Shown: in pieces, positions 26,033 to 37,412 of the stretch
Position numbering within the stretch: position 1 is the stretch's first letter
Layout: every line of letters begins with the position of its first letter
DNA from: a virus
DNA: 39,096 bases
Strand: one strand, 5' to 3'
Virus record (IMG/VR): IMGVR_UViG_3300045988_041986
Span: 1-39,096 of that record
Made by a program: the position numbers and the translations under genes
The notes under the pieces: generated by a model
Seen by the model: only the letters and a program-made list of their open reading frames with translations
What the model was told of the DNA's origin: nothing
The model's database searches: none

Positions 26033-26042
26033 GAATATTCTT

Positions 26043-26603: not shown

Positions 26604-26951
26604 TTATTCGCTCCTTTCAATTGAGAAACATAATGTCTTGTGGTAATACTTCGTATCATCCTCATACATATCTTCGGATGAACGGTCAGGTTCCCACATA
26701 AACCCGACAGCTTTAAGCAATACTTTTAACGCCTTGATAATCGGCTTGTAATTGCCCTTTGAGTAAATATCAAAATCATAATATTCAACGTAGTTCAGCA
26801 GTTCATCATCACCATGCAACGTGCTGTCCGCATCTGTCATTGTGTAAGTGATGTATGTTTCCGAACTTCCATTATATCGTAAGAACTTTACTGGAATTTT
26901 TTTGCCGTTGACCGTAAAATCACTCAATGTTTTTTCAATGAGATTATTCAT
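26604..26951 (-). CDS. Tail terminator / tail completion protein (by position)
   Basis: 115 aa, located between the gp10-like and major tail genes. Confidence 0.4.
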   Translation of the reverse strand: MNNLIEKTLSDFTVNGKKIPVKFLRYNGSSETYITYTMTDADSTLHGDDELLNYVEYYDFDIYSKGNYKPIIKALKVLLKAVGFMWEPDRSSEDMYEDDTKYYHKTLCFSIERSE

Positions 26952-27372
26952 CTAACAGTCCCCCGCTCAACTTCTTCTGCGCTTCTTCCATTGCTTTCAT
27001 GATTTGTGACTTTTTGAAAGACTTTCGGAAAAAAGGATGCTTTGGATATTTCCTTTTGTCACTGCCATACTCGAACATATTAGCAACAAGTGGTGCAGGA
27101 GTCTTCTTGCCTTTCTTGTTTTTAAAATATCCAGTGATCATGACTTTCGTGTTGATACCATCATCTGACGGTGTTTTATACACTCGTGACAGCTTCACGT
27201 TTTTTGTGAAGCCTGAACTTTTCAGCGCTTCTGGAAGTGCCGAAATAGCATTCTTATAAACAACCTCTGCACCTGCTTGTGTCATACCACCAAAGATGTG
27301 ATCAAACTGCTTGTCGATGTAAGATATATCCTTCAGCACGCTATCATCAATATCAACCGTGAATTTTGCCAT
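26944..27372 (-). CDS. HK97 gp10-like neck/tail-completion protein
   Basis: The segments GGMTQAGAEVVYKNAISALPE...FEYG...PKHPFFRKSF resemble the HK97-gp10-like family. Confidence 0.6.
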   Translation of the reverse strand: MAKFTVDIDDSVLKDISYIDKQFDHIFGGMTQAGAEVVYKNAISALPEALKSSGFTKNVKLSRVYKTPSDDGINTKVMITGYFKNKKGKKTPAPLVANMFEYGSDKRKYPKHPFFRKSFKKSQIMKAMEEAQKKLSGGLLDE

Positions 27373-27698
27373 CAGTGAGTCACTTCCTTTGCCTGAATTT
27401 CTAATTCTACGCTGTTTTCATCAACGTTGTTGAGATATTCAATGGAATAAGTTTTTTCGTGAAAATCAATCAGCATATCTCTTGTGATTTTTGTTTTCGG
27501 ATAACGAATCGTGAAGTTGGTGTATGCTTTTTCAAAATCAGAATTGTTTGCAATCAGCGTAAATCCTTTTGTTGTTCTCACATATGCATATGGTGTAAGA
27601 ATCACCTTCTTCTGTTCTGTCTGAAAGCCATCATCATCAGTAACAATGACGGTCTTATATATCGTGATACGCTTTGAATACTTCCCTGCATTTAACAT
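27372..27698 (-). CDS. Head closure / head-tail adaptor protein (SPP1 gp16-like)
   Basis: KRITIYK...DDDGF...YAYVRT...NFTIRYPKTKITRDMLI...YSIEYLNNVDE...LEIQAKEV is the typical head-tail joining pattern. Confidence 0.75.
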   Translation of the reverse strand: MLNAGKYSKRITIYKTVIVTDDDGFQTEQKKVILTPYAYVRTTKGFTLIANNSDFEKAYTNFTIRYPKTKITRDMLIDFHEKTYSIEYLNNVDENSVELEIQAKEVTH

Positions 27699-27708
27699 GG
27701 TTCACACC

Positions 27709-28008
27709 TCACAAAAGATTGACACTGTGCATTGCGAGAATGCTCTGCACCGTGTTATTCAGGTCTTTACTATCAACATACATTGTTCGGTTATCCCACA
27801 TGTCCTGACAAAGAATAAGCACCACGATCACAAATTCAGGATATTTGTCAACACTAGCATCGTCAAGCCCTGTATAGCTCTTTATGTATGAGGTTGCAAT
27901 AGAAATAAGCGTGGTCAATGTATTTATTTCGCTGTCATTTACTTCATCCAGTCTCAAATAATCTGCGATGTTTTCTTCTGTAATATCACTAACCTTGCTT
28001 ATCTCCAT
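27709..28008 (-). CDS. gp6-like head-tail connector protein
   Basis: NIADYLRLDEVNDSEINTLTTLISIATSYIKSYTG is typical of the Phage_connect_1 family. Confidence 0.7.
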   Translation of the reverse strand: MEISKVSDITEENIADYLRLDEVNDSEINTLTTLISIATSYIKSYTGLDDASVDKYPEFVIVVLILCQDMWDNRTMYVDSKDLNNTVQSILAMHSVNLL

Positions 28009-28031
28009 ATCGCTCGCCCCTTTCTAATGAT

Positions 28032-29168
28032 TTATTTGCTATTCATGACAAGTTTTGCAAGTTTCTGAGTATCTGCGACTTTTGCATCCCACTCAACGAA
28101 AGCTAGAATTCCAAGTAAATGTTCTTCTGCATATCTTTCCTGCAACACCTGCATGTTAGCATCTTCTGAAACCTTCACTGCAAGACCTGAGAAGTCACCA
28201 TAATAAATGGTTGTTTTTCCTGCAAGAATCTTGTCCATCGCATCAGAGCAATAAACGTCTTTGCCTAGAAGTGTATATCCCCACTTTGCTGTAAAGTCAC
28301 GATTCAATAAATAATCGCCGTCATTATCTTTTAACTTTCTGATTGCATTTCGTGTTTCACGGTTCATAATCCATACAGAATTACCCTGATAGTTGTCGAT
28401 TACTTTGTCCTGCACATCCATTAGCTCGTCAGATGTAATCTTTGTGGCTGTGGCAGTTGTAACAGTCATATCTGCTGTAATTCCTTTTAAACCTTCAACC
28501 TTTCCTTCTGTGCCGAACAGAATTTCATGTTCGAAATAAAGTGCGATTGCCTGTGCCATTTTTGCTTCAACAAAGCCAACAATATCGAAGTTGGAATTGT
28601 TGATAAGACTCTTTGAAATTTTAGCAAGGCAACGTGCAAGGAATCCACCAAGAGTGATCTGGCTGATTACAACTTTACCAGACTCTGCTGTTGTTCCTTC
28701 ATCTGCATACTGCATCACGATTGAACTGTTCTGTGCATCATACTTTGGTAATACTAGATTGCCAGTGATGTTATAGCGATCTGCCATAGAGAACACAGGT
28801 GAGATTTCAATTACTTGAGAAATGATTTCATTCCAGACTGTTGTTGGAATAAGTGTCTTTGCATCGGCAGGCATTGTTGGTGTGTCCGTATTCACAATGC
28901 CACGAATTGCATTTTCAAACATCTTGTGATCTTTTTCTGCATTTGTCATTTCAACAGGTGCGCTTGGCACCTTCTGCATACCAAGCCCAGCCATCTGGTC
29001 ATACATGGCAACAGTTGCATCAATGTCCTTTACCTCTTTTTCAAGGTTTGCAAACTGTTTTTTTTCGTCTTCAGATGGCAATCTGTTTTCTGCCTTTGCA
29101 GTTGTTAGCAGATTTTCCATCTGAGCGACTTTTGAATTTCGATTTTCAATGAGTTCTTTTACGTTCAT
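28032..29168 (-). CDS. Major capsid protein, HK97 fold
   Basis: 378 aa with an N-terminal coiled-coil delta-like domain. It follows the ClpP-like prohead protease. Confidence 0.85.
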   Translation of the reverse strand: MNVKELIENRNSKVAQMENLLTTAKAENRLPSEDEKKQFANLEKEVKDIDATVAMYDQMAGLGMQKVPSAPVEMTNAEKDHKMFENAIRGIVNTDTPTMPADAKTLIPTTVWNEIISQVIEISPVFSMADRYNITGNLVLPKYDAQNSSIVMQYADEGTTAESGKVVISQITLGGFLARCLAKISKSLINNSNFDIVGFVEAKMAQAIALYFEHEILFGTEGKVEGLKGITADMTVTTATATKITSDELMDVQDKVIDNYQGNSVWIMNRETRNAIRKLKDNDGDYLLNRDFTAKWGYTLLGKDVYCSDAMDKILAGKTTIYYGDFSGLAVKVSEDANMQVLQERYAEEHLLGILAFVEWDAKVADTQKLAKLVMNSK

Positions 29169-29183
29169 TTCTTCACCCCTCCG

Positions 29184-29936
29184 TCATTTTTTTAATGAAC
29201 TAATAATATTTTCGTATGCCGAATAATCAAGCACACGATCCTCGACAGGCTTTTTAACCTGTTTTGGTTTTCTCAATGCATCTGGAACATGCTTATAATT
29301 TTTAAACAAGTCCGTTGCACATGCCTGTACATCCTTCACACTGTCCAATGCGTTCACATTGAAATAATTTCCGATGTACATATCATCATCTGCATTGCCA
29401 CTGAACCACGTTTCGTTGTCCACCAGCTCTGCAATCTTTTCTGCTGTGATTCCTTCTTTTGCCTTTGCTTCATACATTGGCAACATCATTCCGCTTTCAA
29501 TCAGATTTAATGTATCAATGTCATGTTGTAACTCGTTAGCATTTCCGTACGAACACGTCATTGGCTTATGAATCATCATTACCGAATTTTTGTAAATGTT
29601 GATATCATCTGCGACCATAGCAAGATATGTAGCGGAACTTGCACACATTCCATCAATATATGCATGAATCTTCGCTCCTGTGTTCTGTCTGAATCTCTTC
29701 AGCATGCTGACCATTGTCGAGCTTGCAAACACTGAGCCACCGCCACTATTGATGTAAATATTAAAATCTGTCACTCCTGTCAGACTGTCAAGCTCTGCCT
29801 TGAATGTGTTTGTGTCAATTGCTGTTTCTGATTTATCACCAAACCAGTCAGGCACGTTTTCATCAACTATATCGCCATAAATATAAAAATCAGCGCTTGT
29901 TTTTGCCAGATTCTTCAAGTACTTGTAATTCATCAT
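29184..29936 (-). CDS. ClpP-family prohead maturation protease
   Basis: INSGGGSVFASSTMVSMLKRF...IDGMCASSATYLAMVADDINIYKNSVMMIHKP. The likely start is MMNYKYL at 29936. The track ORF extends to 29990. Confidence 0.85.
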   Translation of the reverse strand: MMNYKYLKNLAKTSADFYIYGDIVDENVPDWFGDKSETAIDTNTFKAELDSLTGVTDFNIYINSGGGSVFASSTMVSMLKRFRQNTGAKIHAYIDGMCASSATYLAMVADDINIYKNSVMMIHKPMTCSYGNANELQHDIDTLNLIESGMMLPMYEAKAKEGITAEKIAELVDNETWFSGNADDDMYIGNYFNVNALDSVKDVQACATDLFKNYKHVPDALRKPKQVKKPVEDRVLDYSAYENIISSLKK

Positions 29937-31152
29937 CTGCCCCCTTTTCAGTTTCTTCAACTTTCTCAGCCGTTTCTTCTTCATTTCCACCTGTCACTTG
30001 TCCAGTGTTTGGCGTGTAATAAATTCCTGTGTTGGTGTCATACAATACTGCGCCAAGTCCAACATTGATCACGTCCATGCCCTCAATGTAATTGAGATTT
30101 TCCATTCGGCGCAACTCATTGATAGTCATAAGTCCTGTTTCTTTTGCAACCTTGTAAGCGTCGAATCTTTCCTTGATGCTTGCTTTCACAATTTCTTTCG
30201 TATCAAATTCAAAGAAGAAGTTTCGTTTTTCTTTTTCTAACAGCAGTGTGCTGTTTATAGCTGTCTCAAATGCTTTAATAATCGGATATATCGCTTCCTT
30301 GAATGTCAGGTTGAAGTCACTGTGAATATGGAATACTCCATTTATTTCATCCTGTAAAGTCTTCTTGCTCTCATTCAACTGCATTTCAACTGAACTATTT
30401 GACGACTCCTGAAACTTGATGCCGTTGTTTAGAACCATGACGGATTCGGTGTTGTTGGCGTATAACCTCTTCCATGCTTCTTTGAGCTTGTCCACTTCTT
30501 CTTGTCCAAGCCTACGCTCTGCCTGTAAGAATCCTTTTTTATTACCACCTGTCAGAACCAGTCCAAGCTGATATTTCAACGTACTGTATGCCGTTTCAAG
30601 GGCCTTTGAGATTTCTTCAGTCAATCCCTTTCCGCTTGCTCCATCTTTGGTGTTCCTCAACAACTTGACCATGTTCCATGGATATATTTTATTTGTCCCA
30701 ACATAGAACTGTACGAAACGGTTCATTGGGTCGGAATTTGACCACACAGTGACGTTCATATCTGGAATATATTTCAGCGCCGTTACGTTGTTCTGTCTGT
30801 CTCTTTGGATAAAACAATATCCACCCTTGCCAAGTAAGTAATCCTCGACCATGGCTTTTTTTGTCTGAAACCCGTCAAGCGTGTTTCCAGTGTCGCCATT
30901 AAGCATTCGTACACGGCTGTCTCTCTGCACTTCTTCAACTTTGCCGTTCTTGTACTTGTAAAGCTTCACAGGCATGGATGCAATCGAACCGCTGATAAAG
31001 TCAACGGCACCTGATACGGCAGGAAGTGTCAGAGCCTTATCTCTTGTGATGGTCTCATTATTAAGCAATGCCGACAACAGCGCATCGTCAAGCTGAACAC
31101 TTTGATCGTTAAGATTTATTTTGTTCTTGATTCTTTTCTTAAATAGTGCCAC
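29890..31152 (-). CDS. Portal protein (HK97 family)
   Basis: 420 aa between TerL and the protease. GTG start with a GAGGGGCGG RBS. The C-terminal tail is acidic. Confidence 0.85.
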   Translation of the reverse strand: MALFKKRIKNKINLNDQSVQLDDALLSALLNNETITRDKALTLPAVSGAVDFISGSIASMPVKLYKYKNGKVEEVQRDSRVRMLNGDTGNTLDGFQTKKAMVEDYLLGKGGYCFIQRDRQNNVTALKYIPDMNVTVWSNSDPMNRFVQFYVGTNKIYPWNMVKLLRNTKDGASGKGLTEEISKALETAYSTLKYQLGLVLTGGNKKGFLQAERRLGQEEVDKLKEAWKRLYANNTESVMVLNNGIKFQESSNSSVEMQLNESKKTLQDEINGVFHIHSDFNLTFKEAIYPIIKAFETAINSTLLLEKEKRNFFFEFDTKEIVKASIKERFDAYKVAKETGLMTINELRRMENLNYIEGMDVINVGLGAVLYDTNTGIYYTPNTGQVTGGNEEETAEKVEETEKGADDELQVLEESGKNKR

Positions 31153-31176
31153 TCTCGTTACCGCCCCTCGTTAGTA

Positions 31177-31234
31177 TTTTCTATTTGAAACATTTTTACA
31201 CACACATATTAGCATAAATGCACGTTTTTAGCAA
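31177..31234 (-). promoter_or_regulatory. Candidate internal promoter (TTGCTA, 17 bp, TAATAT) followed by a one-mismatch palindrome copy
   Basis: The -35 is at 31229-31234 and the -10 at 31206-31211. TTTTCTATTTGAAAC at 31177-31191 lies in the predicted 5' UTR of the portal gene. Confidence 0.35.
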
Positions 31235-32938
31235 TTAAATCATCTGGAATGTGAAGTCACCTTCATTCAAGAAATAATCCTGTTCTAGAAGGTAAATCGC
31301 ATTGATAAGTGATACAACCATATCAACCTTGCCGTTGCTCTTTTTCTTGCTGACATACATATTTTTGTTTGTGTCATATGCACATTTAGCATTCTGAAAG
31401 TTAATCTCTAGCAATTTATTTTCTGTATACTTGAATTTCTGTTTAAGTATTGCTTCTTTCATCCTCTTTGTCGGAGAATGCAAGACACTTGAATACTGTT
31501 TTATCTGAACCGTGTTATAGCCTTCATTAGCCAATTTCTGTGCAGTTGATAATGCATTCCATCTATCATATCCAATCGCCTGAATTTGCACGTTATAACG
31601 GCTCTCAATACTCAATATGAACTGCTCGACAAACGCATATGAGATAACTCTGTCACCACATGCAAACACCTTATCACTCTTCAATAGTTCTTGATAGTTC
31701 ACACGCTCTGAGATTGTTTTCTCTGTGATCCTGTCTGCTGGAATGAACGCAAAACTTTCTGCAAGAATGTTATCATCATCATCTACAGAAACCATGGCAA
31801 CAGATGTATTATCATTCGATTCTGAAAGGTCAACGCCTAAATATACAACCCTTCCGTTCCAATCAATATCTGCAACCTTGCACGCCTGAACATCCTTAAC
31901 ATCAATGAACGTTTCAGTTCCTTGCCCTTGATAGATAATATTGCAATGCTTTGTTACAAAGTTCTCTCGCTCGTTCTCAATGGCAATGGCTCTCGCACGT
32001 TTCTTGATAAGATCATCCCAAATTTCAGGGATTTCCAATGATGCAGGATTCGCCTGCTTCAAAACAAGATCGTCTGTTTCCCAGTCTGATGTTTTGTCAG
32101 GTTCATATAAAAGTGCAAAAACAGTATCGTCTTTCTCGATACCGTCCAGAACCTTCTTGGCATACGCAACTTCATCTTCAAACGGATTGTCGATTGTCGG
32201 GTATTTTGTACTGATAACGAACCCTAGTTTGTTGACAACGTTTAGCTGTCCTGATCTCATGGCTTCGACAGGATAACCGTTCGGCAATGCTCCAACTTCA
32301 TCTGCAATAAATGCGTTCGGCATACGTCCATCCATACGGTTGTTACTGTATGCTAACGGGATCAACGTGTTTTCATTCGGTTTGAATTTGATGTAGTCTC
32401 TTAACAACTTAAAACGCTTCGTTCCTTTATATTCATAAATAAGTGGACTGCTTTTGATTGTATCTGAGATTGCTTCTTTGATTTCTCTTGATAACGCACC
32501 ATCTGGCGCAACTGAAAAGAACTTTGAGAACTTTGGCTCTGTCAAAAACAAGATAATAAAGATTGTTCCGATTGTATATGTCTTGAAATTCTTTCTGCAA
32601 ATTTCCAAAAGCCCTGTCTCATATCTGCGCTTTTTCGGCTTGTCACGATATACCGTGCATAGCATGGCTGTATAAATTAGCCATTGATACCCCGTGGCGC
32701 ACTTATACATTGACTGTCCTGCTTTCAATCCCTTCGGCATGATAAGCAGTTTCAGAATATTTTCAATCTGCTGTACTTTCTTTTCTGATACGAAATACTT
32801 TCTGTCTTTTCCTTCTGCAATCTTCATCCAGTCTCGCATCTGTTTTTTGACGTATCTCGGTGTGGTTTTCTTTCTGACAGAGTTTTTGCAATATTCATAA
32901 GCCTTACTGCTCGTCACTGCCATCATCGTCACCGCCAT
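31235..32938 (-). CDS. terL: Terminase large subunit (Terminase_1 family)
   Basis: 567 aa with ATPase N-terminus (LEICRKNFKT, IADEVGA) and a nuclease C-terminal half. An alternative start at 32923 overlaps the terS stop. Confidence 0.9.
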   Translation of the reverse strand: MAVTMMAVTSSKAYEYCKNSVRKKTTPRYVKKQMRDWMKIAEGKDRKYFVSEKKVQQIENILKLLIMPKGLKAGQSMYKCATGYQWLIYTAMLCTVYRDKPKKRRYETGLLEICRKNFKTYTIGTIFIILFLTEPKFSKFFSVAPDGALSREIKEAISDTIKSSPLIYEYKGTKRFKLLRDYIKFKPNENTLIPLAYSNNRMDGRMPNAFIADEVGALPNGYPVEAMRSGQLNVVNKLGFVISTKYPTIDNPFEDEVAYAKKVLDGIEKDDTVFALLYEPDKTSDWETDDLVLKQANPASLEIPEIWDDLIKKRARAIAIENERENFVTKHCNIIYQGQGTETFIDVKDVQACKVADIDWNGRVVYLGVDLSESNDNTSVAMVSVDDDDNILAESFAFIPADRITEKTISERVNYQELLKSDKVFACGDRVISYAFVEQFILSIESRYNVQIQAIGYDRWNALSTAQKLANEGYNTVQIKQYSSVLHSPTKRMKEAILKQKFKYTENKLLEINFQNAKCAYDTNKNMYVSKKKSNGKVDMVVSLINAIYLLEQDYFLNEGDFTFQMI

Positions 32939-33278
32939 TTATAAGCTGAAGCAACGGGTCAGTGTCACCCTCGGAATTATCATCACTGGAAAATCTCGAA
33001 ATGATCTTCATTAACGTGCTGACTGTCTTATTTGCACTGTCAGTTGTTCGGTTATAATCCTGAATGGCTGGATGTGAATATACGTTTTTTCTTCCTTTTA
33101 CATATTCTTTTGTAACCAACACGCCGTCATTTTTGATTGACGATTCAAGCTCGTTTAATATTTTCAACTGTACCATGTATCGCCTGAATGTCGTAATGAA
33201 GAAGAAGTTTTTATCAACCCCAAACGCTTCTGCTTTCTGTAATATTTCTTCAGCCTGTTCATTTACTGTTTTTCGCAT
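32904..33278 (-). CDS. terS: Terminase small subunit (P27 family)
   Basis: 124 aa. FFITTFRRYMVQLKILNELESSIKNDGVLVTKEY..GRKNVYSHPAIQDYNRT is typical of P27-family TerS. It lies immediately upstream of terL. Confidence 0.75.
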   Translation of the reverse strand: MRKTVNEQAEEILQKAEAFGVDKNFFFITTFRRYMVQLKILNELESSIKNDGVLVTKEYVKGRKNVYSHPAIQDYNRTTDSANKTVSTLMKIISRFSSDDNSEGDTDPLLQLINGGDDDGSDEQ

Positions 33279-34363
33279 AATTCTCTCACCGCCTTTAATG
33301 CACTTTTGATTGTATCTTCCATATCGTAATATTTATACTCTGCAAGCCTTCCAACTGTGATCAATCCGTCACGGTCTGCAAGCTCTTTGTACTTCTGATA
33401 CAGTGCTTTGTTCTTTTCATCCTCAATCGGATAGTATCGCTCTTTCCCGATATCCCATTTCTGCGGATATTCCTTCGTGATAATGGTTGTCGGTGTCTTA
33501 ACTCCTGTGAAATGCTTGTGTTCAATAACTCTGGTATACGGCACTCTAGCATCGGTATAATTCACGACAGCATTGCCTTGATGATTTTCTTCCTTCAATT
33601 CCTCAGTTTCAAATTTCAGACTACGATATTCCAATGTTCCAAAGCAATAACCGTACCATTCATCAATAGCACCTGTCAGAACCACGTTTTTTGCCCTTTT
33701 TAGCCACTTTGTGCTTGAGCATGAACATTTATACCCTGTTACCACTTCAACGCCTTCTAGGAGTCTTTCTACGGTCTTAGAATAACCATCTACTGGAATG
33801 CCTTGGTACTTTGCATTGAAATAATTATTGTTGTATGTGAATCGCAACGGAATACGCCTGATAATACTTTTGTCAAGTTCCTTGCATGGCTTGCCCCACT
33901 GCTTTTCTGTATATCCTTTTATCAACTTATCATAAATATCCATGCCTACAAGATTTAGAACATATTCTTCAAGATTCTTCGGATTTTTACACGGTATCCG
34001 TTGTTCTTCAATCTTCTTTTTAGCTTCTTCAGGTGTTACAACGCCCCACAATTTAGAAAATGTGTTCATGTTGAACGGAAGGTTATATATTTCGCCTTTG
34101 TAATTTGCAATAGGTTCATTGATGAAATTGTTAAAACTAGCGAAACGGTTAACATAATCCCATATATCAATATCATTAGTTCTAAATATATGAGGGCCGT
34201 ATAGATGCACATTTATTCCGCTGATTTCTCTGTCTCTAATATTTCCACCTACAGCATCACGTTTTTCAAGAATAACGCATTTATAACCCTTGTCCGTCAA
34301 TTCTCTGGCAATCACTGAACCACTCAGCCCCGCACCTACAATCAGATAGTCAATGTCTTTCAT
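33263..34363 (-). CDS. glf: UDP-galactopyranose mutase (FAD-dependent)
   Basis: MKDIDYLIVGAGLSGSVIARELTDKGYKCVILEKRDAVGGN...VHLYGPHIFRTNDIDIWDYVNRF..FNNF...NYKGEIYNLPFNMNTF closely follows the bacterial Glf sequence pattern (E. coli Glf YDYIIVGSGLFG...HKYGAHIFHTNDKYIWDYVN...NLPFNMNTF). Confidence 0.9.
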   Translation of the reverse strand: MKDIDYLIVGAGLSGSVIARELTDKGYKCVILEKRDAVGGNIRDREISGINVHLYGPHIFRTNDIDIWDYVNRFASFNNFINEPIANYKGEIYNLPFNMNTFSKLWGVVTPEEAKKKIEEQRIPCKNPKNLEEYVLNLVGMDIYDKLIKGYTEKQWGKPCKELDKSIIRRIPLRFTYNNNYFNAKYQGIPVDGYSKTVERLLEGVEVVTGYKCSCSSTKWLKRAKNVVLTGAIDEWYGYCFGTLEYRSLKFETEELKEENHQGNAVVNYTDARVPYTRVIEHKHFTGVKTPTTIITKEYPQKWDIGKERYYPIEDEKNKALYQKYKELADRDGLITVGRLAEYKYYDMEDTIKSALKAVRELCEKQ

Positions 34364-35213
34364 TCTTACACCACCTTTCAGACAGAAGTTTCGGCACGGC
34401 ATTATTCCAACTAATTTCGTGATGAATCCTGAAGTCCGTAATTCCCATTGCCGAAACTTTTACAAATGAAGGGCAACACATGACACTGTAGAACGATTTT
34501 CTATATGTACCATTCTTTTTATAGATATCAGTCATTCCACCAGCATCACGCTGAGTCGCAGGAGTAATCACCTGCAAGCTCGAAATGCTATAGAACAGCT
34601 TTCCTCGTGATCCATACAAAACGCATGATGTTATATCATCATTCATACGCATGACAAATTTCACTTTGTCTTTTGCTTTTAAGAAAAACGATCCCATTGT
34701 TTTCCTGAACATTCCTTTTTGGAACCTGTCACTAGCAACTCCGCCAATGTAATCACTTGATAATGCGAATGATAAAGCAGTCAACGGCGTTGATAAAAAT
34801 AAATCAAGGCACGCATCGAATATAGCATCAAGGTCAGTGACCATCATGCTTTGTAATTTTTCATCATCTGCATATCTGATTGAGATTTCAGAAAAATCAT
34901 CATCAAGCTGTAGGTGACATTCATAGCCAAGACGTTCTGCTTCATCTTGAATAAAGTTTCTCGCAAACACGCCAACCCTTCTATCTGTGTCCATATCGCC
35001 AAGGTCGATTTTGCTTACATAGTCTCGCTTATCAAATTGAATGATGTGATTTCCAAACTCATTTCTGTACAGTTCTTCTTGATCATCCTCATTGTCTATA
35101 ACAACATACCAATCGCCTGTATAATGGAAACGTTTCAACATATTAACTGTCTTGATGTTGTTCGCTCTGCCATGCGAAAGAATAAATACAGCAAAGTTTT
35201 TATTCTGCATCAT
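34350..35213 (-). CDS. Putative GT-A-fold nucleotide-sugar transferase, paralog 2 (uncharacterised family)
   Basis: FAVFILSHGR...YTGDWYVVIDNED...GVFARN...CHLQLDDDF...DYIGGV. A hydrophobic strand followed by DDD is DXD-like. It is clearly paralogous to 35982-36827. No TM segment. Confidence 0.4.
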   Translation of the reverse strand: MMQNKNFAVFILSHGRANNIKTVNMLKRFHYTGDWYVVIDNEDDQEELYRNEFGNHIIQFDKRDYVSKIDLGDMDTDRRVGVFARNFIQDEAERLGYECHLQLDDDFSEISIRYADDEKLQSMMVTDLDAIFDACLDLFLSTPLTALSFALSSDYIGGVASDRFQKGMFRKTMGSFFLKAKDKVKFVMRMNDDITSCVLYGSRGKLFYSISSLQVITPATQRDAGGMTDIYKKNGTYRKSFYSVMCCPSFVKVSAMGITDFRIHHEISWNNAVPKLLSERWCKNERH

Positions 35214-35979
35214 CTTCACCGCCCCCACCTTCAGCGATTAAGTCCTGTACTACCTTTGTAAGCTTCACATATCCATTTGCAATTGCATCATCAATGTCAA
35301 TAATGACAAGTGCTGATTTCTCCATAAGAATCTGCATTTCTTCAGAAGCATTGGAATAATAGTCAGCAATCTTTGAATAATTGAATTTAAGATGTCTGTA
35401 AGCCCCCTTGATAAGAAAATTCTTCTGATCTTCAGAAACATTAGATGCCTTGATTTCCTTGATTAACTCGTTTGTTTTCTCATCGTCAATCAAATCCATA
35501 ATATCGACAAAATCGCCTGTCGGTTCGTACTGTGGAATGTGTTTCTTCTGGCTGTAAGGATTTTCTTCGTCTGGAAGCTCAACGTCCATAGTATCATCAT
35601 CCTTGAAAAGATCATCACCGAACTGAGTCATATCCATCATGATGTCGCTCAGTTCTTCAGCAAGTTTAGTGTTATCCCATGTACTATACTCAGACACCTT
35701 ATTATCTGCAATCCTGAATGCCTTTATCTGGTCTTCTGTAAGGTCGTCAGCCACAATACAAGGGACCTCGTCAATGCCTAGCTTCTTACATGCTTTAAGT
35801 CTTGTATGACCTGTGATCAATACGCCGTCACCACTCACAACGCACGGAACTTTGAAGCCGAACTCCTCAATGCTTTTTGCTACATAGTCAACAGCTTCAT
35901 CATTGTTTCTCGGATTGTTCTCATACGGAATCAAGTCCTTAACTTTCTTGTAAACGATATTCATTTTTTTGCTTTCCAT
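35200..35979 (-). CDS. ParB/Srx-fold N-terminal domain protein with a non-methyltransferase C-terminal domain
   Basis: VKDLIPYENNPRNNDEAVDYVAKSIEEFGFKVPCVV...LITGHTRLKACKKLGIDEVPCIV...IKAFRIADNK matches the ParB-like nuclease domain seen at the N-terminus of phage ParB-methylase fusions. The C-terminal 140 aa are unrecognised. Confidence 0.7.
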   Translation of the reverse strand: MESKKMNIVYKKVKDLIPYENNPRNNDEAVDYVAKSIEEFGFKVPCVVSGDGVLITGHTRLKACKKLGIDEVPCIVADDLTEDQIKAFRIADNKVSEYSTWDNTKLAEELSDIMMDMTQFGDDLFKDDDTMDVELPDEENPYSQKKHIPQYEPTGDFVDIMDLIDDEKTNELIKEIKASNVSEDQKNFLIKGAYRHLKFNYSKIADYYSNASEEMQILMEKSALVIIDIDDAIANGYVKLTKVVQDLIAEGGGGEDDAE

Positions 35980-35981
35980 TT

Positions 35982-36827
35982 TTACGCCCTGCCTTTCTTA
36001 TATTGCCCGCTTAATATTTTAGGATATGCGTTCTCAGATACTACAGTCCAGTCGTATCCATCTCCTGACTCTTTCAGCTTTATGCAATCAGGGTGGAACA
36101 TAACGACGTAATACCTCAACCTGTAAGAGCCTATCTTGTCGTAGTCCTCAATACTACCGCCACTGCTTTTTGATTTTCGCTTTGGGATCCATACATCATA
36201 TGTGCTCATAACAGGAATGAATTTGAATCCTGCATGACCTTTTTGTGCTTCATCGACAACCGTAATTATGTCGTCTGAAAATCTGCTTCGCCATTTGATT
36301 TTGTTTGACGTTCTGAGAAAAAAACTGTTCATTACAGCCCTGTTTGCTTTTCCACTTTCAAACGTTGGCACACCGCCGATATAATCAACGGCATTTCCGA
36401 ATCCTAAACACTGCACAGGTGCTTCATCAAAGTATTGGCATATTCCATCAAACAGCCTGTCAAGTTCTCTAGCCTTGATTCCTCTTAAATGCCCATCATC
36501 ATTATATCTGTACGAAAGATTTTCAAGATCATCGTCAAGCTCTAGGTAGTAAGTCAGCCTGTTTTTCTCTGCAACCTTCAAACATTGGTTGCGTGCAAAC
36601 ACTCCACATGCCTTACTGCCACCCAAGTCTCCAGTATCGAAGTCTTCTTCTTTGTGGAATACATAAACATCAGCCCCGTACCTTTCAAGATAATCTGGTA
36701 GCGTTTTGTCTTCATCATCAACAACGATATAGATTTTTCCTGTATATCCACACTCACGAAGCACCTTTACCGTACTGCACTCAGGTCTGCCATGTGAGAT
36801 TACGATACACGCAAAGTCTTTTCGCAT
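35982..36827 (-). CDS. Putative GT-A-fold nucleotide-sugar transferase, paralog 1 (uncharacterised family)
   Basis: FACIVISHGR...YTGKIYIVVDDED...GVFARN...YYLELDDDL...DYIGGV. RBS GAGGAAGGGAG. No TM segment. Confidence 0.4.
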   Translation of the reverse strand: MRKDFACIVISHGRPECSTVKVLRECGYTGKIYIVVDDEDKTLPDYLERYGADVYVFHKEEDFDTGDLGGSKACGVFARNQCLKVAEKNRLTYYLELDDDLENLSYRYNDDGHLRGIKARELDRLFDGICQYFDEAPVQCLGFGNAVDYIGGVPTFESGKANRAVMNSFFLRTSNKIKWRSRFSDDIITVVDEAQKGHAGFKFIPVMSTYDVWIPKRKSKSSGGSIEDYDKIGSYRLRYYVVMFHPDCIKLKESGDGYDWTVVSENAYPKILSGQYKKGRA

Positions 36828-36913: not shown

Positions 36914-36943
36914 ATTATAGCGTGAAATTTGCCGTTTTTCCAA
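36914..36943 (-). promoter_or_regulatory. Candidate promoter (TTGGAA, 18 bp, TATAAT) for the sugar-transfer module / packaging operon
   Basis: The -35 is at 36938-36943 and the -10 at 36914-36919 on the minus strand, in the 207-bp HNH-to-module gap. Confidence 0.4.
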
Positions 36944-37034
36944 AAAACCATAAGATTTTTTAAATTTTGTGTTCATTCCTTTGGGCGTTTCATCTCACTG
37001 TCTCACCAGAAAATGCCCGTTACCATGGGGGGGA

Positions 37035-37412
37035 TTATTTCAGCCTGTCTATCCTCTGCCTTGCTAACTTCTTTAAATACTTTTTGTCAATCATTCCTGC
37101 ATCAGCTAACCTGTGACAGTCTTTGCATAAACAGATAAGGTTATCATCATCCAACCATAGGTCTGGATTGTCTTTCAGCTTCTCTATGTGATGTACCTCA
37201 ACATTTCTGTAATTGTAGATACCTTTATCCTTACATACTTCACACAGATAGTTTGCATCTTCTCTAATCTGTTTGCTTTTATCTGTCCATGCGCTCTTGC
37301 TTCTCAGCCTTGACTCTTTGTAACTGTACTTGTAGTGCTTCTTTTCTACCTTGCACACATACCCTTTCGGATGTATCCTTCCACATCTGCTACAAGCATA
37401 ATAGCCTTGCAT
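37035..37412 (-). CDS. HNH endonuclease (packaging-associated type)
   Basis: CSRCG...C, then CEVCKDKGIYNYRNVEVHHIEKLKDNP...DDNLICLCKDCH, gives an HNH core with flanking zinc-binding Cys pairs. Confidence 0.85.
   Translation of the reverse strand: MQGYYACSRCGRIHPKGYVCKVEKKHYKYSYKESRLRSKSAWTDKSKQIREDANYLCEVCKDKGIYNYRNVEVHHIEKLKDNPDLWLDDDNLICLCKDCHRLADAGMIDKKYLKKLARQRIDRLK

What the first reader, a model, noticed from the sequence alone, without database searches (positions are those of the whole stretch)
33263..36827. Four-gene sugar-transfer cargo (GT-like / ParB-like / GT-like paralog / Glf) wedged between HNH and terS: candidate undescribed phage glycosylation system
Seen directly: four tightly packed minus-strand genes lie between the HNH endonuclease and the P27-type small terminase. 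There is a 2-nt gap at 35979-35982. Start/stop overlaps occur at about 35200-35213, 34350-34363 and 33263-33278. The last gene (glf) overlaps the terS start, so the block is translationally coupled to the packaging operon. Established: in HNH-dependent packaging phages the HNH gene normally sits next to terS, so this looks like a 3.6-kb cargo insertion at a conserved junction. Established: Glf makes UDP-galactofuranose, a donor used only for glycoconjugate synthesis. Two paralogous soluble proteins with a hydrophobic strand followed by DDD look like GT-A transferases. A ParB/Srx-fold DNA-binding or NTPase domain protein sits between them. Inference, three competing targets. (a) Phage DNA could be decorated with galactofuranose as an anti-restriction hypermodification, which would fit the ParB-like partner and late co-expression with packaging. 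(b) Virion proteins could be O-glycosylated, since the 793-aa fibre has a 130-aa Ser/Thr/Ala rod. (c) Host wall teichoic acid or cell-wall polysaccharide could be modified, as with prophage TarP-type enzymes. Against (a): I found no dCMP/dUMP hydroxymethylase, TET/JBP oxygenase or DNA methyltransferase anywhere in the genome. Against (c): there are no membrane segments or flippase genes, and the module is in the late operon. To my knowledge no phage system combining Glf with these partners has been described.
Basis: partly seen in the sequence, partly recalled or inferred. Interest (0 to 1): 0.85.

Follow-up and report, generated by a model that had tools for sequence, protein, structure and literature searches.

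The report
ParB-coupled phage glycosyltransferase module with Glf
A temperate Lactobacillus-type phage carries, just upstream of its DNA-packaging genes, two glycosyltransferases of the family that sugar-coats phage DNA, a ParB-like partner protein and a galactofuranose-donor enzyme; the likely target is the phage's own DNA, yet the phage has no known way to make the hydroxylated bases such enzymes normally need.

Summary
In detail: four tightly packed, co-oriented genes lie between the HNH gene and terS.

- **Identities.** Both GT-like proteins belong to Pfam TAGT. This is the GT-A family of the base-J glucosyltransferase, the T6 second-glucose DNA glucosyltransferase and GREB1. Glf passes the curated UDP-galactopyranose mutase cut-off.
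- **ParB-like protein.** It has a ParB/Srx N-terminal domain, an acidic linker and a previously unmodelled C-terminal domain (CTD).
- **Not a simple insertion.** ParB-like + GT2 is a widespread two-gene phage module, usually just upstream of the terminase genes. It occurs in bacterial and archaeal viruses and in 889 of 5,426 complete E. coli genomes. GT1 and Glf are lineage-specific add-ons.
- **New here.** In 79 of 80 related viral loci the GT is accompanied by the CTD. Where the ParB domain is missing, a beta sliding-clamp-like gene is often directly adjacent. ParB-GT fusion proteins also exist.

Together with the ParB domain's closest relatives, which are phage DNA methyltransferase fusions, this favours DNA as the substrate (about 0.5). 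No TET/JBP, thymidylate-synthase homologue or methyltransferase is present, so the acceptor is unknown. Protein glycosylation is the main rival. I rate it a new variant of a known kind.

The parts
37035..37412 (-). HNH endonuclease, the upstream neighbour. It is part of the packaging context, not of the glycosylation module.
   Evidence: Pfam HNH E 1e-7; phrog_144 E 1.2e-21.
36930..36995 (-). cos-like region, homologous to the left (cos) end of Lactobacillus phage c5.
   Evidence: By-eye comparison with c5 positions 1-60. The string 'atggttttttggaaaaa' is identical and 'aaacgcccaaagg' matches c5 'aaacacccgaacc'. The c5 cos is annotated at positions 1-11.
36914..36943 (-). Promoter-like site (TTGGAA-18-TATAAT) ahead of GT1.
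   Evidence: Consensus scan, 10 of 12 matches. This is weak evidence on its own.
35982..36827 (-). GT1: an accessory TAGT-family GT-A glycosyltransferase of the class that lacks the C-terminal RIHH motif. Catalytic motifs: HGR 36786-36794, DDD 36528-36536, SDDI 36267-36278.
   Evidence: - Pfam PF20691 TAGT, 75.4 bits against a cut-off of 27.5.
- phrog_842, E 3.4e-37.
- About 33-35% identical to GT2.
- Motifs and coordinates.
- Absent from c5 and from variant L019.
35644..35979 (-). ParB-like protein, N-terminal ParB/Srx (CTPase-fold) domain, residues 1-112. It carries the conserved motifs PYENNPR and GHTR.
   Evidence: - Pfam ParB_N, 24.9 bits, just under the 26.3 cut-off.
- phrog_620, E 1.7e-67.
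- Profile against PDB: Noc/Spo0J/ParB, E 6e-8.
- PADLOC MTase_II, N-terminal part of the model, E 9.6e-31.
- Closest phage relatives outside the GT context are N-termini of DNA methyltransferase fusions, about 60% identical.
35506..35643 (-). ParB-like protein, acidic low-confidence linker, residues 113-158. It ends in the conserved Y-[ST]-x-K-x-x-I-P-Q-Y motif (PQY at 35527-35535).
   Evidence: AF2 pLDDT is below 50 for residues 114-146. The linker's net charge is about -8. Y151 is invariant in alignments A3 and A5.
35203..35505 (-). ParB-like protein, helical C-terminal domain (CTD), residues 159-259. It is the near-constant partner of this GT clade and matched no Pfam model.
   Evidence: - Present with the GT in 79 of 80 IMG/VR loci, either fused to the ParB domain or standing alone.
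- 1,177 cluster representatives at E <= 1e-3.
- Conserved residues R195, H196, E220 and D228.
- Net charge about -13.
- Pfam reported only ParB_N for the whole protein.
34350..35213 (-). GT2: the core TAGT-family GT-A glycosyltransferase of the RIHH class. Catalytic motifs: HGR 35166-35174, DDD 34896-34904, NDDI 34632-34643, RIHH 34419-34430.
   Evidence: - Pfam TAGT, 124.9 bits.
- phrog_842, E 2.6e-63.
- AF2 pLDDT 86.2.
- Foldseek against PDB: all top hits are GT-A glycosyltransferases, E about 4e-6.
- Foldseek against BFVD: TM 0.86-0.87 to TAGT-domain phage proteins.
- Orthologue of c5 ORF2, 61% identical.
33263..34363 (-). Glf, UDP-galactopyranose mutase, which makes UDP-galactofuranose.
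   Evidence: NCBIfam TIGR00031 equivalog, 380.8 bits against a cut-off of 303.75. Pfam GLF E 2.8e-74 and NAD_binding_8. It follows the GT in 12 of 80 IMG/VR loci and in a Clostridia MAG prophage.
32904..33278 (-). Small terminase candidate. Its start overlaps the end of Glf.
   Evidence: phrog_13845 E 3e-77. Weak Terminase_4 and terS PHROG hits. It is 92% identical to c5 ORF4, which sits directly upstream of terL.

Best explanation
The block is a late-expressed, DNA-directed glycosylation module.

**Core pair**
- The core is the ParB-like protein plus GT2, a TAGT-family GT-A glycosyltransferase.
- The ParB-like protein acts as an adaptor and activator. Its C-terminal domain holds the GT. Its N-terminal ParB (CTP-switch, DNA-clamp-type) domain keeps the complex on double-stranded DNA.
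- Newly replicated phage DNA would thus be glycosylated before the adjacent terminase packages it.

**Add-ons in this lineage**
- GT1, a second TAGT of a different subclass, most likely adds a second sugar to the first.
- Glf converts host UDP-galactopyranose to UDP-galactofuranose, so one of the sugars is probably galactofuranose.
- The expected benefit is protection of injected DNA from host nucleases. Variable add-on enzymes would diversify the glycan.

**Shown versus inferred**
- Shown: family memberships, GT-A fold and catalytic motifs, gene order and its conservation, the CTD-GT coupling, the fusion proteins and the clamp association.
- Inferred: that DNA is the acceptor, the order in which the two GTs act, that Galf is the transferred sugar, and the biological role.
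- Unknown: which atom of DNA is glycosylated. The phage encodes no recognisable route to 5-hydroxymethyl or 5-hydroxy pyrimidines.
For: 1. **GT family.** GT1 and GT2 score 75 and 125 bits on Pfam TAGT.
   - They keep the R...DDD...(E/D)D motifs of the phage GT-A DNA glycosyltransferases (Pyle et al.).
   - Known members include the base-J glucosyltransferase, 5hmC glycosyltransferases and the T2/T6 enzyme that adds a second glucose to glucosyl-hmC.
2. **ParB domain.** Its nearest relatives outside this context are N-terminal domains of phage DNA methyltransferase fusions (phrog_498 E 5e-42; about 60% identity; PADLOC MTase_II).
   - A ParB homologue with the same build (nucleotide-binding domain, disordered linker, C-terminal domain, no DNA-binding domain) is an experimentally required activator of phage thymine dioxygenases on dsDNA (PMC13229309).
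   - The AF2 model here has that architecture.
3. **CTD-GT coupling.** The CTD accompanies the GT in 79 of 80 IMG/VR loci. Single-chain ParB-CTD-GT fusions exist, for example P0210 at 529 aa.
4. **Clamp association.** Where the ParB domain is missing, a beta-clamp-like gene lies in the locus in 11 of 25 cases, against 0 of 80 for loci with the ParB domain (Fisher p = 1.8e-8; the loci are not independent).
   - The clamp gene is directly adjacent to the CTD/GT genes in L026, L028, L051, L064, L067/68 and L076/78.
   - These short CTD proteins mostly start with x-L-F-[DENK].
   - So the CTD is paired either with a ParB-type clamp domain or with a replicative sliding-clamp gene.
5. **Genomic context.** The module sits next to terminase/portal genes or next to polymerase/helicase/clamp genes, in viruses of hosts with unrelated envelopes: E. 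coli, Lactobacillus, Nocardia, Porphyromonas and Haloarcula.
6. **Glf precedents.** Glf sits beside DNA-glycosylation genes in other phages: Pootjesviridae and Lactobacillus brevis phage ATCCB, with a thymidylate-synthase homologue, a T4 beta-GT-family gene and Glf in a row.
7. **Variable add-ons.** Other lineages carry different sugar-donor enzymes at the same spot: NDP-sugar epimerase/dehydratase, a histidine-phosphatase + cytidylyltransferase fusion, extra GTs (up to five) and a radical SAM enzyme.
   - This resembles the sequential-GT and GT-plus-epimerase DNA hypermodification clusters of Pyle et al..
8. **Two GT classes.** In multi-GT loci one GT usually keeps the RIHH motif and an extra one lacks it, as GT2 and GT1 do.
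Against: 1. **No known acceptor route.** Every characterised DNA-acting TAGT uses a hydroxyl on a modified base or on a sugar already attached to DNA.
   - This window has no TET/JBP, thymidylate-synthase homologue or methyltransferase among ORFs of 145 aa or more.
   - Neither family appeared among the 25 families listed per batch in the two neighbour surveys. Weak single hits could be hidden by the output limit.
   - Pyle et al. themselves judged GT contigs without 5mYOX or ThyS 'less likely' to be DNA hypermodifiers.
2. **Protein-acting relative.** The family has a protein-glycosylating member, GREB1.
3. **Acidic proteins.** The ParB-like protein is very acidic (pI 4.4, net -26) and has no recognisable DNA-binding domain. 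GT1 and GT2 are mildly acidic (pI about 6.2).
4. **Dispensable.** The module decays in several relatives: L011, L012, and the dairy phages phiLdb, LL-Ku, Ld17 and Ld25A.
5. **No experimental data** exist for any member of this clade. The clamp-binding reading of the N-terminal LF motif is my inference.
Confidence: 0.5

Rival explanations
1. Protein glycosylation. The TAGT enzymes O-glycosylate a protein rather than DNA. The most specific version is that the always-adjacent CTD protein is itself the acceptor, at the invariant Tyr (Y151) or the nearby Ser/Thr of the Y-[ST]-x-K-x-x-I-P-Q-Y motif in its disordered linker. GT1, Glf and the other add-on enzymes would then extend a glycan on it, in a glycogenin-like priming arrangement. 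Alternatively the target is another phage protein or a host protein, such as a defence or replication factor.
For: - GREB1, a TAGT-related GT domain, O-GlcNAcylates the protein ER-alpha (PMC7968844).
- PGAP names the E. coli homologue 'GREB1-related protein'.
- No hydroxylated-base pathway is present in the window.
- The CTD protein is the near-constant neighbour of the GT. It carries an invariant Tyr in a low-confidence linker, also in the CTD-only versions.
- Peptide-glycosylating GT-A enzymes (SunS, ThuS) are among the structural matches.
Against: - It does not explain why the partner carries a ParB domain shared with DNA methyltransferase fusions.
- It does not explain why that domain is replaced, in effect, by an adjacent sliding-clamp gene.
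- It does not explain the placement among packaging or replication genes.
- Covalent enzyme-substrate fusions such as P0210 are unusual.
- The Thr of the motif is not conserved.
- The structural matches to peptide GTs are generic GT-A similarity, with TM about 0.45.
Confidence: 0.22
2. Virion protein glycosylation. The GTs decorate capsid, tail or fibre proteins, for example the Ser/Thr/Ala-rich region of the 793-aa fibre.
For: - The module is expressed with the late/structural operon.
- The 793-aa protein has a region of up to 82% Ser/Thr/Ala, roughly residues 80-220.
- The GT-A fold is compatible with protein O-glycosylation.
Against: - The ParB-GT pair is conserved across phages with unrelated structural modules: lambdoid E. 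coli prophages, HHTV-2 and Nocardia NTR1. In some phages it lies among replication genes, far from structural genes.
- c5-like relatives with and without GT1/Glf share the same type of packaging and head module, so the add-ons do not track a structural change that I could see.
- Nothing links ParB or clamp proteins to virion assembly.
Confidence: 0.08
3. Host envelope modification (lysogenic conversion). The GTs and Glf add galactofuranose to wall teichoic acid or cell-wall polysaccharide, as TarP-type prophage enzymes do.
For: - Glf normally serves glycoconjugate synthesis.
- Pyle et al. report TarP as the top PDB structural match of related phage GT-A enzymes.
- The phage is temperate, with a serine integrase and an HTH repressor.
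Against: - None of the four proteins has a membrane segment or signal peptide-like hydrophobic stretch (maximum Kyte-Doolittle 19-residue window 1.44). No flippase or polyprenol-linked enzyme is present.
- The genes sit in the late lytic operon, not in a lysogeny-expressed moron.
- The same pair at about 38-40% identity occurs in viruses of Gram-negative, Gram-positive, actinobacterial, Bacteroidota and haloarchaeal hosts with unrelated envelopes.
- TarP was not among the top 50 PDB matches here.
Confidence: 0.05
4. Another nucleophile: RNA 2'-OH or a tRNA base, a nucleotide or second messenger, or DNA ends or the backbone rather than a base.
For: - The lack of a hydroxylated base leaves the acceptor open.
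- The ParB fold binds CTP, ATP or GTP in different members (PMC12704722).
- The module sits right next to cos.
Against: No member of the family is known to use such acceptors. There is no RNA-related neighbour. The clamp/ParB linkage points to scanning along duplex DNA rather than to a soluble substrate.
Confidence: 0.07

Closest known systems
TAGT / JGT-like GT-A DNA glycosyltransferases: Pfam PF20691, the phage 5hmC glycosyltransferases of Pyle et al. 2024, trypanosome base-J glucosyltransferase, and T2/T6 beta-glucosyl-HMC-alpha-glucosyltransferase
   Same: - Sequence family membership: 75 and 125 bits against a cut-off of 27.5.
- GT-A fold.
- R...DDD...(E/D)D motifs.
- Two sequential GTs, as in T2/T6 and the 'subclass I' clusters.
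- A neighbouring sugar-nucleotide tailoring enzyme, as in the 'subclass II' clusters.
   Different: - No TET/JBP dioxygenase, C5-methyltransferase or thymidylate-synthase homologue to create the acceptor.
- Coupling to a ParB-like/CTD partner in 79 of 80 loci.
- A distinct C-terminal region carrying the RIHH motif in the core enzyme.
- 'Solitary TAGTs' have been counted (288 of 753 phage genomes, PMC13216743) but not characterised.
ParB-dependent phage thymine dioxygenases (5mYOX clade C1 + ParB; O'Toole et al., PNAS 2026)
   Same: A phage ParB homologue with a nucleotide-binding domain, a disordered linker and a C-terminal domain but no DNA-binding domain. It is encoded next to a post-replicative DNA-modifying enzyme and often near terminase genes.
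   Different: The partner enzyme here is a glycosyltransferase, not a dioxygenase. I could not test whether the C-terminal domains are homologous, because no sequences were available. An activation requirement has not been tested for this pair.
Phage ParB-DNA methyltransferase fusions (phrog_498; ParB-CTPase fold + N6_N4_Mtase, Kaljevic et al. 2025)
   Same: - The ParB domain is closely related: E 5e-42 to phrog_498, and about 60% identity to the N-termini of Staphylococcus and Streptococcus phage methylases.
- Prophage-borne, as those fusions are reported to be.
   Different: The catalytic partner is a separate GT polypeptide bridged by the CTD (sometimes fused, as in P0210). The chemistry is glycosyl transfer rather than methyl transfer.
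Glf-containing DNA hypermodification clusters: Pootjesviridae (RL38J1, galactose-proximal glycosylated 5-hydroxycytosine) and Lactobacillus brevis phage ATCCB (thymidylate-synthase homologue, T4 beta-GT family, Glf)
   Same: A phage-encoded UDP-galactopyranose mutase directly beside, or within the same cluster as, DNA glycosyltransferase genes.
   Different: Those clusters are pre-replicative: a thymidylate-synthase-family enzyme makes the hydroxylated nucleotide. ATCCB uses a T4 beta-GT-family enzyme, and the RL38J1 candidates match other GT types. Here there is no such synthase, and the GTs are ParB-coupled GT-A enzymes.
GREB1 (animal TAGT-related protein O-GlcNAc transferase)
   Same: A homologous GT domain with the same conserved catalytic residues, according to Shin et al. 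2021. PGAP calls the E. coli prophage homologue 'GREB1-related protein'.
   Different: GREB1 is a large cytoplasmic animal protein acting on ER-alpha. It has no ParB or clamp partner and no phage context.

Membership tests
Pfam PF20691 TAGT (JGT / T6 TAGT / GREB1-type GT-A glycosyltransferase) | Score above the curated gathering threshold of the family model | tested here: met
   GT1 scores 75.4 bits and GT2 124.9 bits against a cut-off of 27.5. All listed homologues carry precomputed PF20691.
Pfam PF20691 TAGT (JGT / T6 TAGT / GREB1-type GT-A glycosyltransferase) | GT-A (nucleotide-diphospho-sugar transferase) fold | tested here: met
   - GT2 AF2 model: pLDDT 86.2, pTM 0.86.
- Foldseek against PDB: 42 hits at E <= 1e-3, and all top hits are GT-A enzymes.
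- TM 0.86-0.87 to TAGT-domain phage proteins, and 0.62 to a beta-glucosyl-HMC-alpha-glucosyltransferase.
- GT1 was not modelled. Its fold is inferred from about 33-35% identity to GT2 and the alignment.
Pfam PF20691 TAGT (JGT / T6 TAGT / GREB1-type GT-A glycosyltransferase) | Conserved R ... DDD ... (E/D)D active-site motifs described for phage GT-A DNA glycosyltransferases | tested here: met
   R16, D104-D106 and D193 (GT2 numbering) are invariant in 12 diverse sequences that include GT1 and GT2. The motif definition comes from Pyle et al..
Pfam PF20691 TAGT (JGT / T6 TAGT / GREB1-type GT-A glycosyltransferase) | Genomic association with a TET/JBP dioxygenase or another source of 5-hydroxymethyl or 5-hydroxy pyrimidine (the 'TET-associated' context) | tested here: not met
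   - No Tet_JBP, Thymidylat_synt or DNA methylase hit among window ORFs of 145 aa or more.
- None appeared among the families listed for 259 neighbour-gene clusters from 76 related loci.
- Only the first 25 families per batch are shown, so weak single hits cannot be excluded.
Pfam PF20691 TAGT (JGT / T6 TAGT / GREB1-type GT-A glycosyltransferase) | Sugar transfer to DNA | not testable with these tools
   This needs nucleoside LC-MS or an in vitro assay. The support here is indirect only (ParB, clamp and context evidence).
ParB/Srx (ParB-CTPase fold) N-terminal domain | Sequence match to the ParB N-terminal domain, including the GxxR phosphate-binding motif | tested here: met
   - Pfam ParB_N E 2.2e-5, but 24.9 bits falls just under the 26.3 cut-off.
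- Profile against PDB: Noc/Spo0J/ParB, E 6e-8.
- TIGR00180, E 1.1e-7.
- phrog_620, E 1.7e-67.
- G57-H-T-R60 is invariant.
Chromosome/plasmid partition ParB | HTH DNA-binding domain, a ParA partner and the ParA-binding motif | tested here: not met
   - No HTH family was detected in the protein.
- The C-terminal half is a very acidic helical domain.
- TIGR00180 scores 31.7 bits against a cut-off of 58.45.
- No ParA-like gene was seen among the scanned window ORFs.
ParB-dependent DNA-modifying enzyme pair (O'Toole et al. 2026) | A ParB homologue with a nucleotide-binding domain, linker and C-terminal domain, lacking a DNA-binding domain, encoded beside a DNA-modifying enzyme | tested here: met
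   The AF2 architecture is NTD 1-112, low-confidence linker 114-146 and helical CTD. The pair is adjacent with overlapping stop and start codons, and the coupling holds in 79 of 80 loci.
ParB-dependent DNA-modifying enzyme pair (O'Toole et al. 2026) | The partner enzyme is a clade C1 5-methylpyrimidine dioxygenase whose activity on dsDNA requires the ParB | tested here: not met
   The partner is a TAGT glycosyltransferase. Dependence of its activity on the ParB-like protein cannot be tested with these tools.
UDP-galactopyranose mutase (Glf) | Score above the equivalog cut-off, plus the FAD-binding Rossmann motif | tested here: met
   TIGR00031 scores 380.8 bits against a cut-off of 303.75 over residues 5-362. 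Pfam GLF E 2.8e-74 and NAD_binding_8 E 1.8e-17. The N-terminus reads VGAGLSG.
Pootjesviridae / ATCCB-type Glf-assisted DNA hypermodification | A thymidylate-synthase-family enzyme making the hydroxylated pyrimidine nucleotide | tested here: not met
   There is no Thymidylat_synt hit in the window. In ATCCB the homologue scores 96 bits.
TarP/TarS-type prophage wall-teichoic-acid glycosyltransferase | An envelope-polymer acceptor, host-envelope-specific distribution and expression from the prophage | tested here: inconclusive
   Fold similarity is generic GT-A only. The distribution across hosts with unrelated envelopes and the late-operon position argue against membership.

The most novel reading that the evidence does not exclude
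ParB- or sliding-clamp-tethered TAGT enzymes glycosylate canonical DNA directly, with no hydroxymethyl or hydroxy-pyrimidine precursor. In this phage they would build a galactofuranose-containing di-glycan. That would be a precursor-free DNA glycosylation chemistry. It would be carried by a compact two-gene cassette present in many temperate phages and archaeal viruses, including prophages in about one in six complete E. coli genomes.
Probability: 0.25. Interest if true: 0.92.

Novelty: new variant of a known kind. Interest (0 to 1): 0.68.

Why it matters
**An unexplained cassette.** All experimentally described phage DNA glycosylation starts from a hydroxylated pyrimidine made by a thymidylate-synthase homologue or a TET/JBP dioxygenase. 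This module has the transferases, a DNA-tracking partner and a donor-making enzyme, but no such step. Either it reveals a new acceptor in DNA, or it shows that a large branch of the 'DNA glycosyltransferase' family does something else.

**Widespread but untested.**
- 889 of 5,426 complete E. coli genomes carry the pair intact.
- The CTD partner family has about 1,200 clusters at 50% identity.
- The pair occurs in bacterial and archaeal viruses.
- Two recent surveys noted 'solitary' GTs without explaining them.

**Why the answer would be useful.**
- The CTD-to-clamp link suggests a general way of tethering DNA-modifying enzymes to sliding platforms.
- It gives directly testable predictions in E. 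coli and in easily grown Lactobacillus phages.
- It bears on phage resistance to restriction and CRISPR, on phage therapy and dairy-starter phage control, and on possible enzymatic DNA-labelling tools.

Tried and rejected
1. **Hidden base-hydroxylating or methylating enzyme in the window.**
   - Pfam and PHROGs scans covered all ORFs of 145 aa or more plus several smaller ones. NCBIfam and PADLOC were run on the four unannotated ones. None was found.
   - Four ORFs remain without annotation: 7440-7976, 3199-3681, 3656-4132 and 6026-6463.
2. **Neighbour survey for Tet_JBP or thymidylate synthase.**
   - 259 neighbour-gene clusters from 76 related viral loci were scanned. Neither family was listed.
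   - The tool shows only the first 25 families per batch, so weak single hits could be missed.
3. **Sequence search of the GT profile against PDB.** No relative was found, so fold search was needed.
4. **Defence-system reading.** PADLOC returned only the ParB-methyltransferase N-terminal similarity.
5. **Host identification.** The genome-contig scan with the ParB-like protein gave only relatives of 48-59% identity in Lachnospiraceae, Clostridia, Fimenecus and Bacteroidaceae MAGs. The host stays inferred as a Lactobacillus-type bacterium from the 77-92% terS/terL identity to L. delbrueckii phage c5.
6. **Glf hits in 'Bacteriophage sp.' human-faecal contigs.** The two checked (L110, L111) have no TAGT or CTD and look like bacterial polysaccharide loci. 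They were dropped as evidence.
7. **Literature gaps.**
   - Iyer et al. 2013, the paper that defined TAGT, is not held.
   - O'Toole et al. supplements contain no sequences, so the 5mYOX-associated ParBs could not be compared with this one.
   - The 'ynaK' literature search found no paper on this function among the titles and abstracts returned.
   - The Nat Commun 2025 anti-restriction paper was irrelevant.
8. **The 'foreign cargo' idea.** Rejected on composition and on synteny with c5.

Full report
**1. What is in the sequence.**

Four minus-strand ORFs fill 33263-36827:
- GT1, 35982-36827, 281 aa.
- A ParB-like protein, 35200-35979, 259 aa.
- GT2, 34350-35213 from the ATG (287 aa), or from a GTG at 35228.
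- Glf, 33263-34363 from the ATG at MKDIDY (366 aa).

There is a 2-nt gap between GT1 and ParB, and there are 14-16-nt overlaps at ParB/GT2, GT2/Glf and Glf/terS. The scan found no terminator-like site inside the block, and a promoter-like site lies at 36943-36914. The base composition of the block (39.3% GC) matches the window (37.9%).

The window is a temperate siphovirus genome. It has a serine integrase and an HTH repressor on the plus strand. Its early genes include ERF, an exonuclease, SSB, NinB, a resolvase, a replication initiator, a DnaC-like loader and a MazG-like protein. The late order is lysis genes, HNH, this block, terS, terL and portal.

**2. Identities.**

*The two glycosyltransferases.*
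- Both match Pfam PF20691 'TET-associated glycosyltransferase' (TAGT) well above the curated cut-off: 75.4 and 124.9 bits against 27.5.
- Both match PHROG 842, 'beta-glucosyl-HMC-alpha-glucosyltransferase'.
- An AlphaFold2 model of GT2 (pLDDT 86.2) is a GT-A fold. Every top PDB match is a GT-A glycosyltransferase, with E down to 4e-6.
- Against predicted viral structures the model aligns at TM 0.86-0.87 with other TAGT-domain proteins, and at 0.62 with a T-even-type beta-glucosyl-HMC-alpha-glucosyltransferase.
- An alignment of 12 diverse family members, including GT1 and GT2, has invariant R16, D104-D105-D106 and D193. This is the R...DDD...(E/D)D signature reported for phage GT-A DNA glycosyltransferases and the trypanosome base-J glucosyltransferase (Pyle et al.).

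*Glf.* It passes the NCBIfam equivalog cut-off for UDP-galactopyranose mutase, at 380.8 against 303.75 bits.

*The ParB-like protein.*
- The N-terminal domain (residues 1-112) is a ParB/Srx domain: profile against PDB gives Noc/Spo0J/ParB at E 6e-8, phrog_620 gives E 1.7e-67, and the GHTR motif is invariant.
- Residues 114-146 form a low-confidence acidic linker.
- The rest is a helical C-terminal domain, the CTD.
- The protein has pI 4.4. It has no recognisable DNA-binding domain and no Pfam hit beyond ParB_N.
- None of the four proteins has a membrane segment.

**3. The block is an elaborated version of a widespread two-gene module, not a simple insertion.**

tblastn with GT2 finds the pair 'ParB-like then TAGT', with overlapping stop and start codons, in many phages. 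It occurs in:
- Lactobacillus delbrueckii phages c5 and phiLdb. The relatives PMBT4, LL-Ku and Ld17 also have the GT, truncated or split in LL-Ku and Ld17.
- L. gasseri phage phi jlb1. JNU_P11 matches both GT2 and the ParB domain at neighbouring positions.
- E. coli lambdoid phages. Salmonella phage SPF_0923 matches both GT2 and the ParB domain at neighbouring positions.
- Nocardia phage NTR1.
- Porphyromonas phages.
- The haloarchaeal virus HHTV-2.

In most of these it lies immediately upstream of the terminase genes. In HHTV-2 the terminase is about 3 kb downstream. In c5 the order is holin, endolysin, HNH, cos, ParB, GT, orf3, terS and terL. Window 36930-36995 is homologous to the c5 cos end. 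The window's terS and terL are 92% and 77% identical to those of c5. So ParB-like + GT2 is ancestral at this position, and GT1 and Glf are the additions.

The full four-gene arrangement recurs in IMG/VR contigs and in 37-40-kb human-gut assemblies. Variants exist:
- One lacks GT1 (L019).
- Some carry internal deletions (L011, L012).
- Two GT2 alleles are seen, at about 95% and about 63% identity.

Each add-on also recurs independently. ParB-GT-Glf at 53-60% identity is found in a Clostridia MAG prophage (L025), and GT - CTD - GT in a Bacteroidaceae MAG contig (L028). In E. coli the pair is intact in 889 of 5,426 complete genomes. PGAP names the genes 'ynaK: ParB/Srx family N-terminal domain-containing protein' and 'GREB1-related protein' or 'hypothetical protein'. 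K-12-type genomes retain only a ynaK/ydaY remnant.

**4. New structure in the data: the C-terminal domain is the near-constant partner, and it goes with DNA clamps.**

I built HMMs for the ParB N-terminal domain, the CTD and the GT, and applied them to 80 IMG/VR loci retrieved with a GT profile.
- In 79 of 80 loci a CTD-bearing protein is encoded with the GT. It is directly adjacent in most and separated by one inserted gene in a few. The one exception has the GT at the contig edge.
- About 60 loci have the ParB domain + CTD. About 18 have a short protein of 118-150 aa consisting of the CTD alone.
- The CTD family has 1,177 representatives at 50% clustering (E <= 1e-3). The CTD is at or near the C-terminus in nearly all of the 150 listed proteins.
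- Single polypeptides fusing ParB-CTD-GT (P0210, 529 aa) and GT-GT (P0121, 566 aa) exist.

The CTD-only proteins keep the linker motif Y-[ST]-x-K-x-x-I-P-Q-Y, with an invariant Tyr that is Y151 in the window. Most begin with x-L-F-[DENK].

Loci where my HMM found a CTD but no ParB domain contain a beta sliding-clamp-like gene in 11 of 25 cases. Loci with the ParB domain contain one in 0 of 80 cases (Fisher p = 1.8e-8; related loci are not independent). A few of the 25 are full-length proteins with divergent ParB domains, or are truncated ORFs. The clamp gene directly abuts the CTD/GT genes in L026, L028, L051, L064, L067/68 and L076/78.

My reading, which is an inference, is that the CTD couples the GT to a ring that travels on DNA. 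That ring is either its own ParB-type CTP-gated domain or the phage's replicative clamp. For comparison, T4 alpha-glucosyltransferase is reported to work in association with the replisome (PMC13216743).

**5. Further evidence on the substrate.**

*The ParB domain.* Its closest relatives outside this context are the N-termini of phage DNA methyltransferase fusions: phrog_498 at E 5e-42, about 60% identity to Staphylococcus and Streptococcus phage methylases, and PADLOC MTase_II. A phage ParB homologue of the same architecture has been shown experimentally to be required for a thymine dioxygenase to act on double-stranded DNA (PMC13229309).

*Neighbouring genes.* Neighbours of the pair are dominated by terminase, portal and replication genes.

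*A hotspot for sugar-donor enzymes.* The position next to the pair carries different sugar-donor and extension enzymes in different lineages:
- Glf here.
- NDP-sugar epimerase/dehydratase.
- A histidine-phosphatase + cytidylyltransferase fusion inserted between ParB and the GT.
- A radical SAM enzyme.
- GT2-family glycosyltransferases.
- Arrays of up to five TAGTs.

*Two GT classes.* In multi-GT loci one enzyme usually keeps a C-terminal RIHH motif, as GT2 does, while an extra one lacks it, as GT1 does. Single-GT loci are mostly of the RIHH class, 72 against 11. This fits a first-sugar enzyme plus extenders.

*Glf precedents.*
- Pootjesviridae DNA carries galactose-proximal glycosylated 5-hydroxycytosine, and a phage Glf is proposed to supply UDP-Galf (PMC13326640).
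- I found that Lactobacillus brevis phage ATCCB encodes a thymidylate-synthase homologue, a T4 beta-GT-family enzyme and Glf consecutively.

**6. What does not fit.**

Characterised DNA-acting TAGTs need a hydroxyl on a modified base or on an attached sugar.
- The window has no TET/JBP, thymidylate-synthase homologue or methyltransferase among ORFs of 145 aa or more.
- c5 (31.8 kb) has none annotated in the stretches I read, which cover positions 1-5707 and 19000-31841.
- Neither family appeared among the families listed for the neighbour genes. That output shows only 25 families per batch.

Two recent papers noticed this class without resolving it. Pyle et al. found about 65% of roughly 25,000 GT contigs lacking a 5mYOX or ThyS neighbour and called them less likely to be DNA hypermodifiers. 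PMC13216743 counted 'solitary TAGT' in 288 of 753 phage genomes. Neither mentions the ParB/CTD coupling, and the ParB-fold survey of Kaljevic et al. does not mention glycosyltransferases.

The family also contains a protein O-glycosyltransferase, GREB1. Protein glycosylation is therefore a real rival. Its most specific form is that the invariant Tyr or the neighbouring Ser/Thr of the partner's disordered linker is the acceptor.

The module is dispensable. It is decayed in L011, L012 and several dairy phages. This suits an accessory, counter-defence role better than an essential packaging role.

**7. Verdict.**

The best-supported mechanism, at about 0.5, is post-replicative, pre-packaging glycosylation of phage DNA by a ParB-coupled TAGT (GT2). 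GT1 would extend the glycan, and Glf would supply galactofuranose. The acceptor atom is unknown.

| Rival | Confidence |
|---|---|
| Protein glycosylation | about 0.22 |
| Virion protein glycosylation | about 0.08 |
| Another nucleophile (RNA, nucleotide, DNA ends) | about 0.07 |
| Host envelope modification | about 0.05 |

Relative to known systems this is a new variant of a known kind. The transferase family, ParB-assisted DNA modification and Glf-assisted DNA glycosylation are each known. The ParB/CTD-TAGT cassette without a precursor-making enzyme, and its Glf-bearing form, have not been described in the literature I could search.

The most novel reading the evidence does not exclude is direct glycosylation of canonical DNA (probability about 0.25).

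Noticed in passing
window 36930-36995 (minus strand): This region is homologous to the cos end of Lactobacillus phage c5. The cohesive-end site therefore probably lies between HNH and GT1, and the glycosylation genes are the first genes at the left end of the packaged genome.
   Followed up: partly
L008:6734-7869, L009:7256-8391, L010:4224-4855: In three close relatives the terL reading frame is interrupted. There is an insertion of about 1.1 kb after residue 119, or about 0.6 kb after residue 31. This may be an intron or a homing-endonuclease insertion. The window's terL is uninterrupted.
   Followed up: no
E. coli complete genomes (e.g. NZ_CP023820.1 1563311-1564985); K-12-type records (e.g. 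NZ_CP026353.1 1425419-1425630): The ParB-like + TAGT pair of Rac-like prophages is intact in 889 of 5,426 complete E. coli genomes. The K-12 genes ynaK and ydaY appear to be truncated remnants of it. PGAP calls the GT 'GREB1-related protein'.
   Followed up: partly
L026, L028, L051, L064, L067, L068, L076, L078: Short CTD-only partner proteins of 118-150 aa, mostly starting x-L-F-[DENK], sit with their GTs directly beside a beta sliding-clamp-like gene. In L028 a family A DNA polymerase gene is also adjacent.
   Followed up: partly
L064:4797-10221: One 115-kb viral contig has a clamp-like gene, a CTD-only gene and then five TAGT-family genes, four of them in tandem. This is the largest array seen.
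   Followed up: no
L091:2613-3599 (cluster found in 4 loci): A histidine-phosphatase + cytidylyltransferase-like fusion gene is inserted between the ParB-like gene and the GT. This suggests a different activated sugar donor in that lineage.
   Followed up: no
L070:6349-7338 (cluster found in 4 loci): A radical SAM enzyme lies immediately downstream of a ParB - GT - GT cluster. Its role is unknown.
   Followed up: no
L112 (Lactobacillus phage ATCCB, MK504445.1) 3031-6086: Three consecutive genes encode a thymidylate-synthase homologue, a T4 beta-glucosyltransferase-family protein and Glf. This looks like an uncharacterised pre-replicative DNA galactofuranosylation cluster.
   Followed up: partly
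L011:6851-7501, L012:856-1890; phages phiLdb, LL-Ku, Ld17, Ld25A: The module is often decayed. Deletions fuse ParB to Glf or to GT2 in L011 and L012. The GT is split or truncated in several dairy L. delbrueckii phages, and Ld25A retains only a ParB/GT C-terminal fusion remnant.
   Followed up: partly
window 2830-3192 (minus strand): A MazG-like nucleoside triphosphate pyrophosphohydrolase (phrog_4856/2245, E about 1e-15) is the only nucleotide-metabolism gene detected in the phage.
   Followed up: no
window 7440-7976, 3199-3681, 3656-4132, 6026-6463 (minus strand): Four early-region ORFs of 145-178 aa have no informative match in Pfam, NCBIfam or PADLOC. Three match only PHROGs of unknown function. 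They are the only places where an unrecognised base-modifying enzyme could hide.
   Followed up: partly
L110 and L111 (MT835647.1, MT835802.1): These 'UNVERIFIED Bacteriophage sp.' human-faecal contigs carry Glf but no TAGT or CTD genes. They resemble bacterial polysaccharide loci, so some Glf 'phage' hits in the phage collection are probably not phage.
   Followed up: partly
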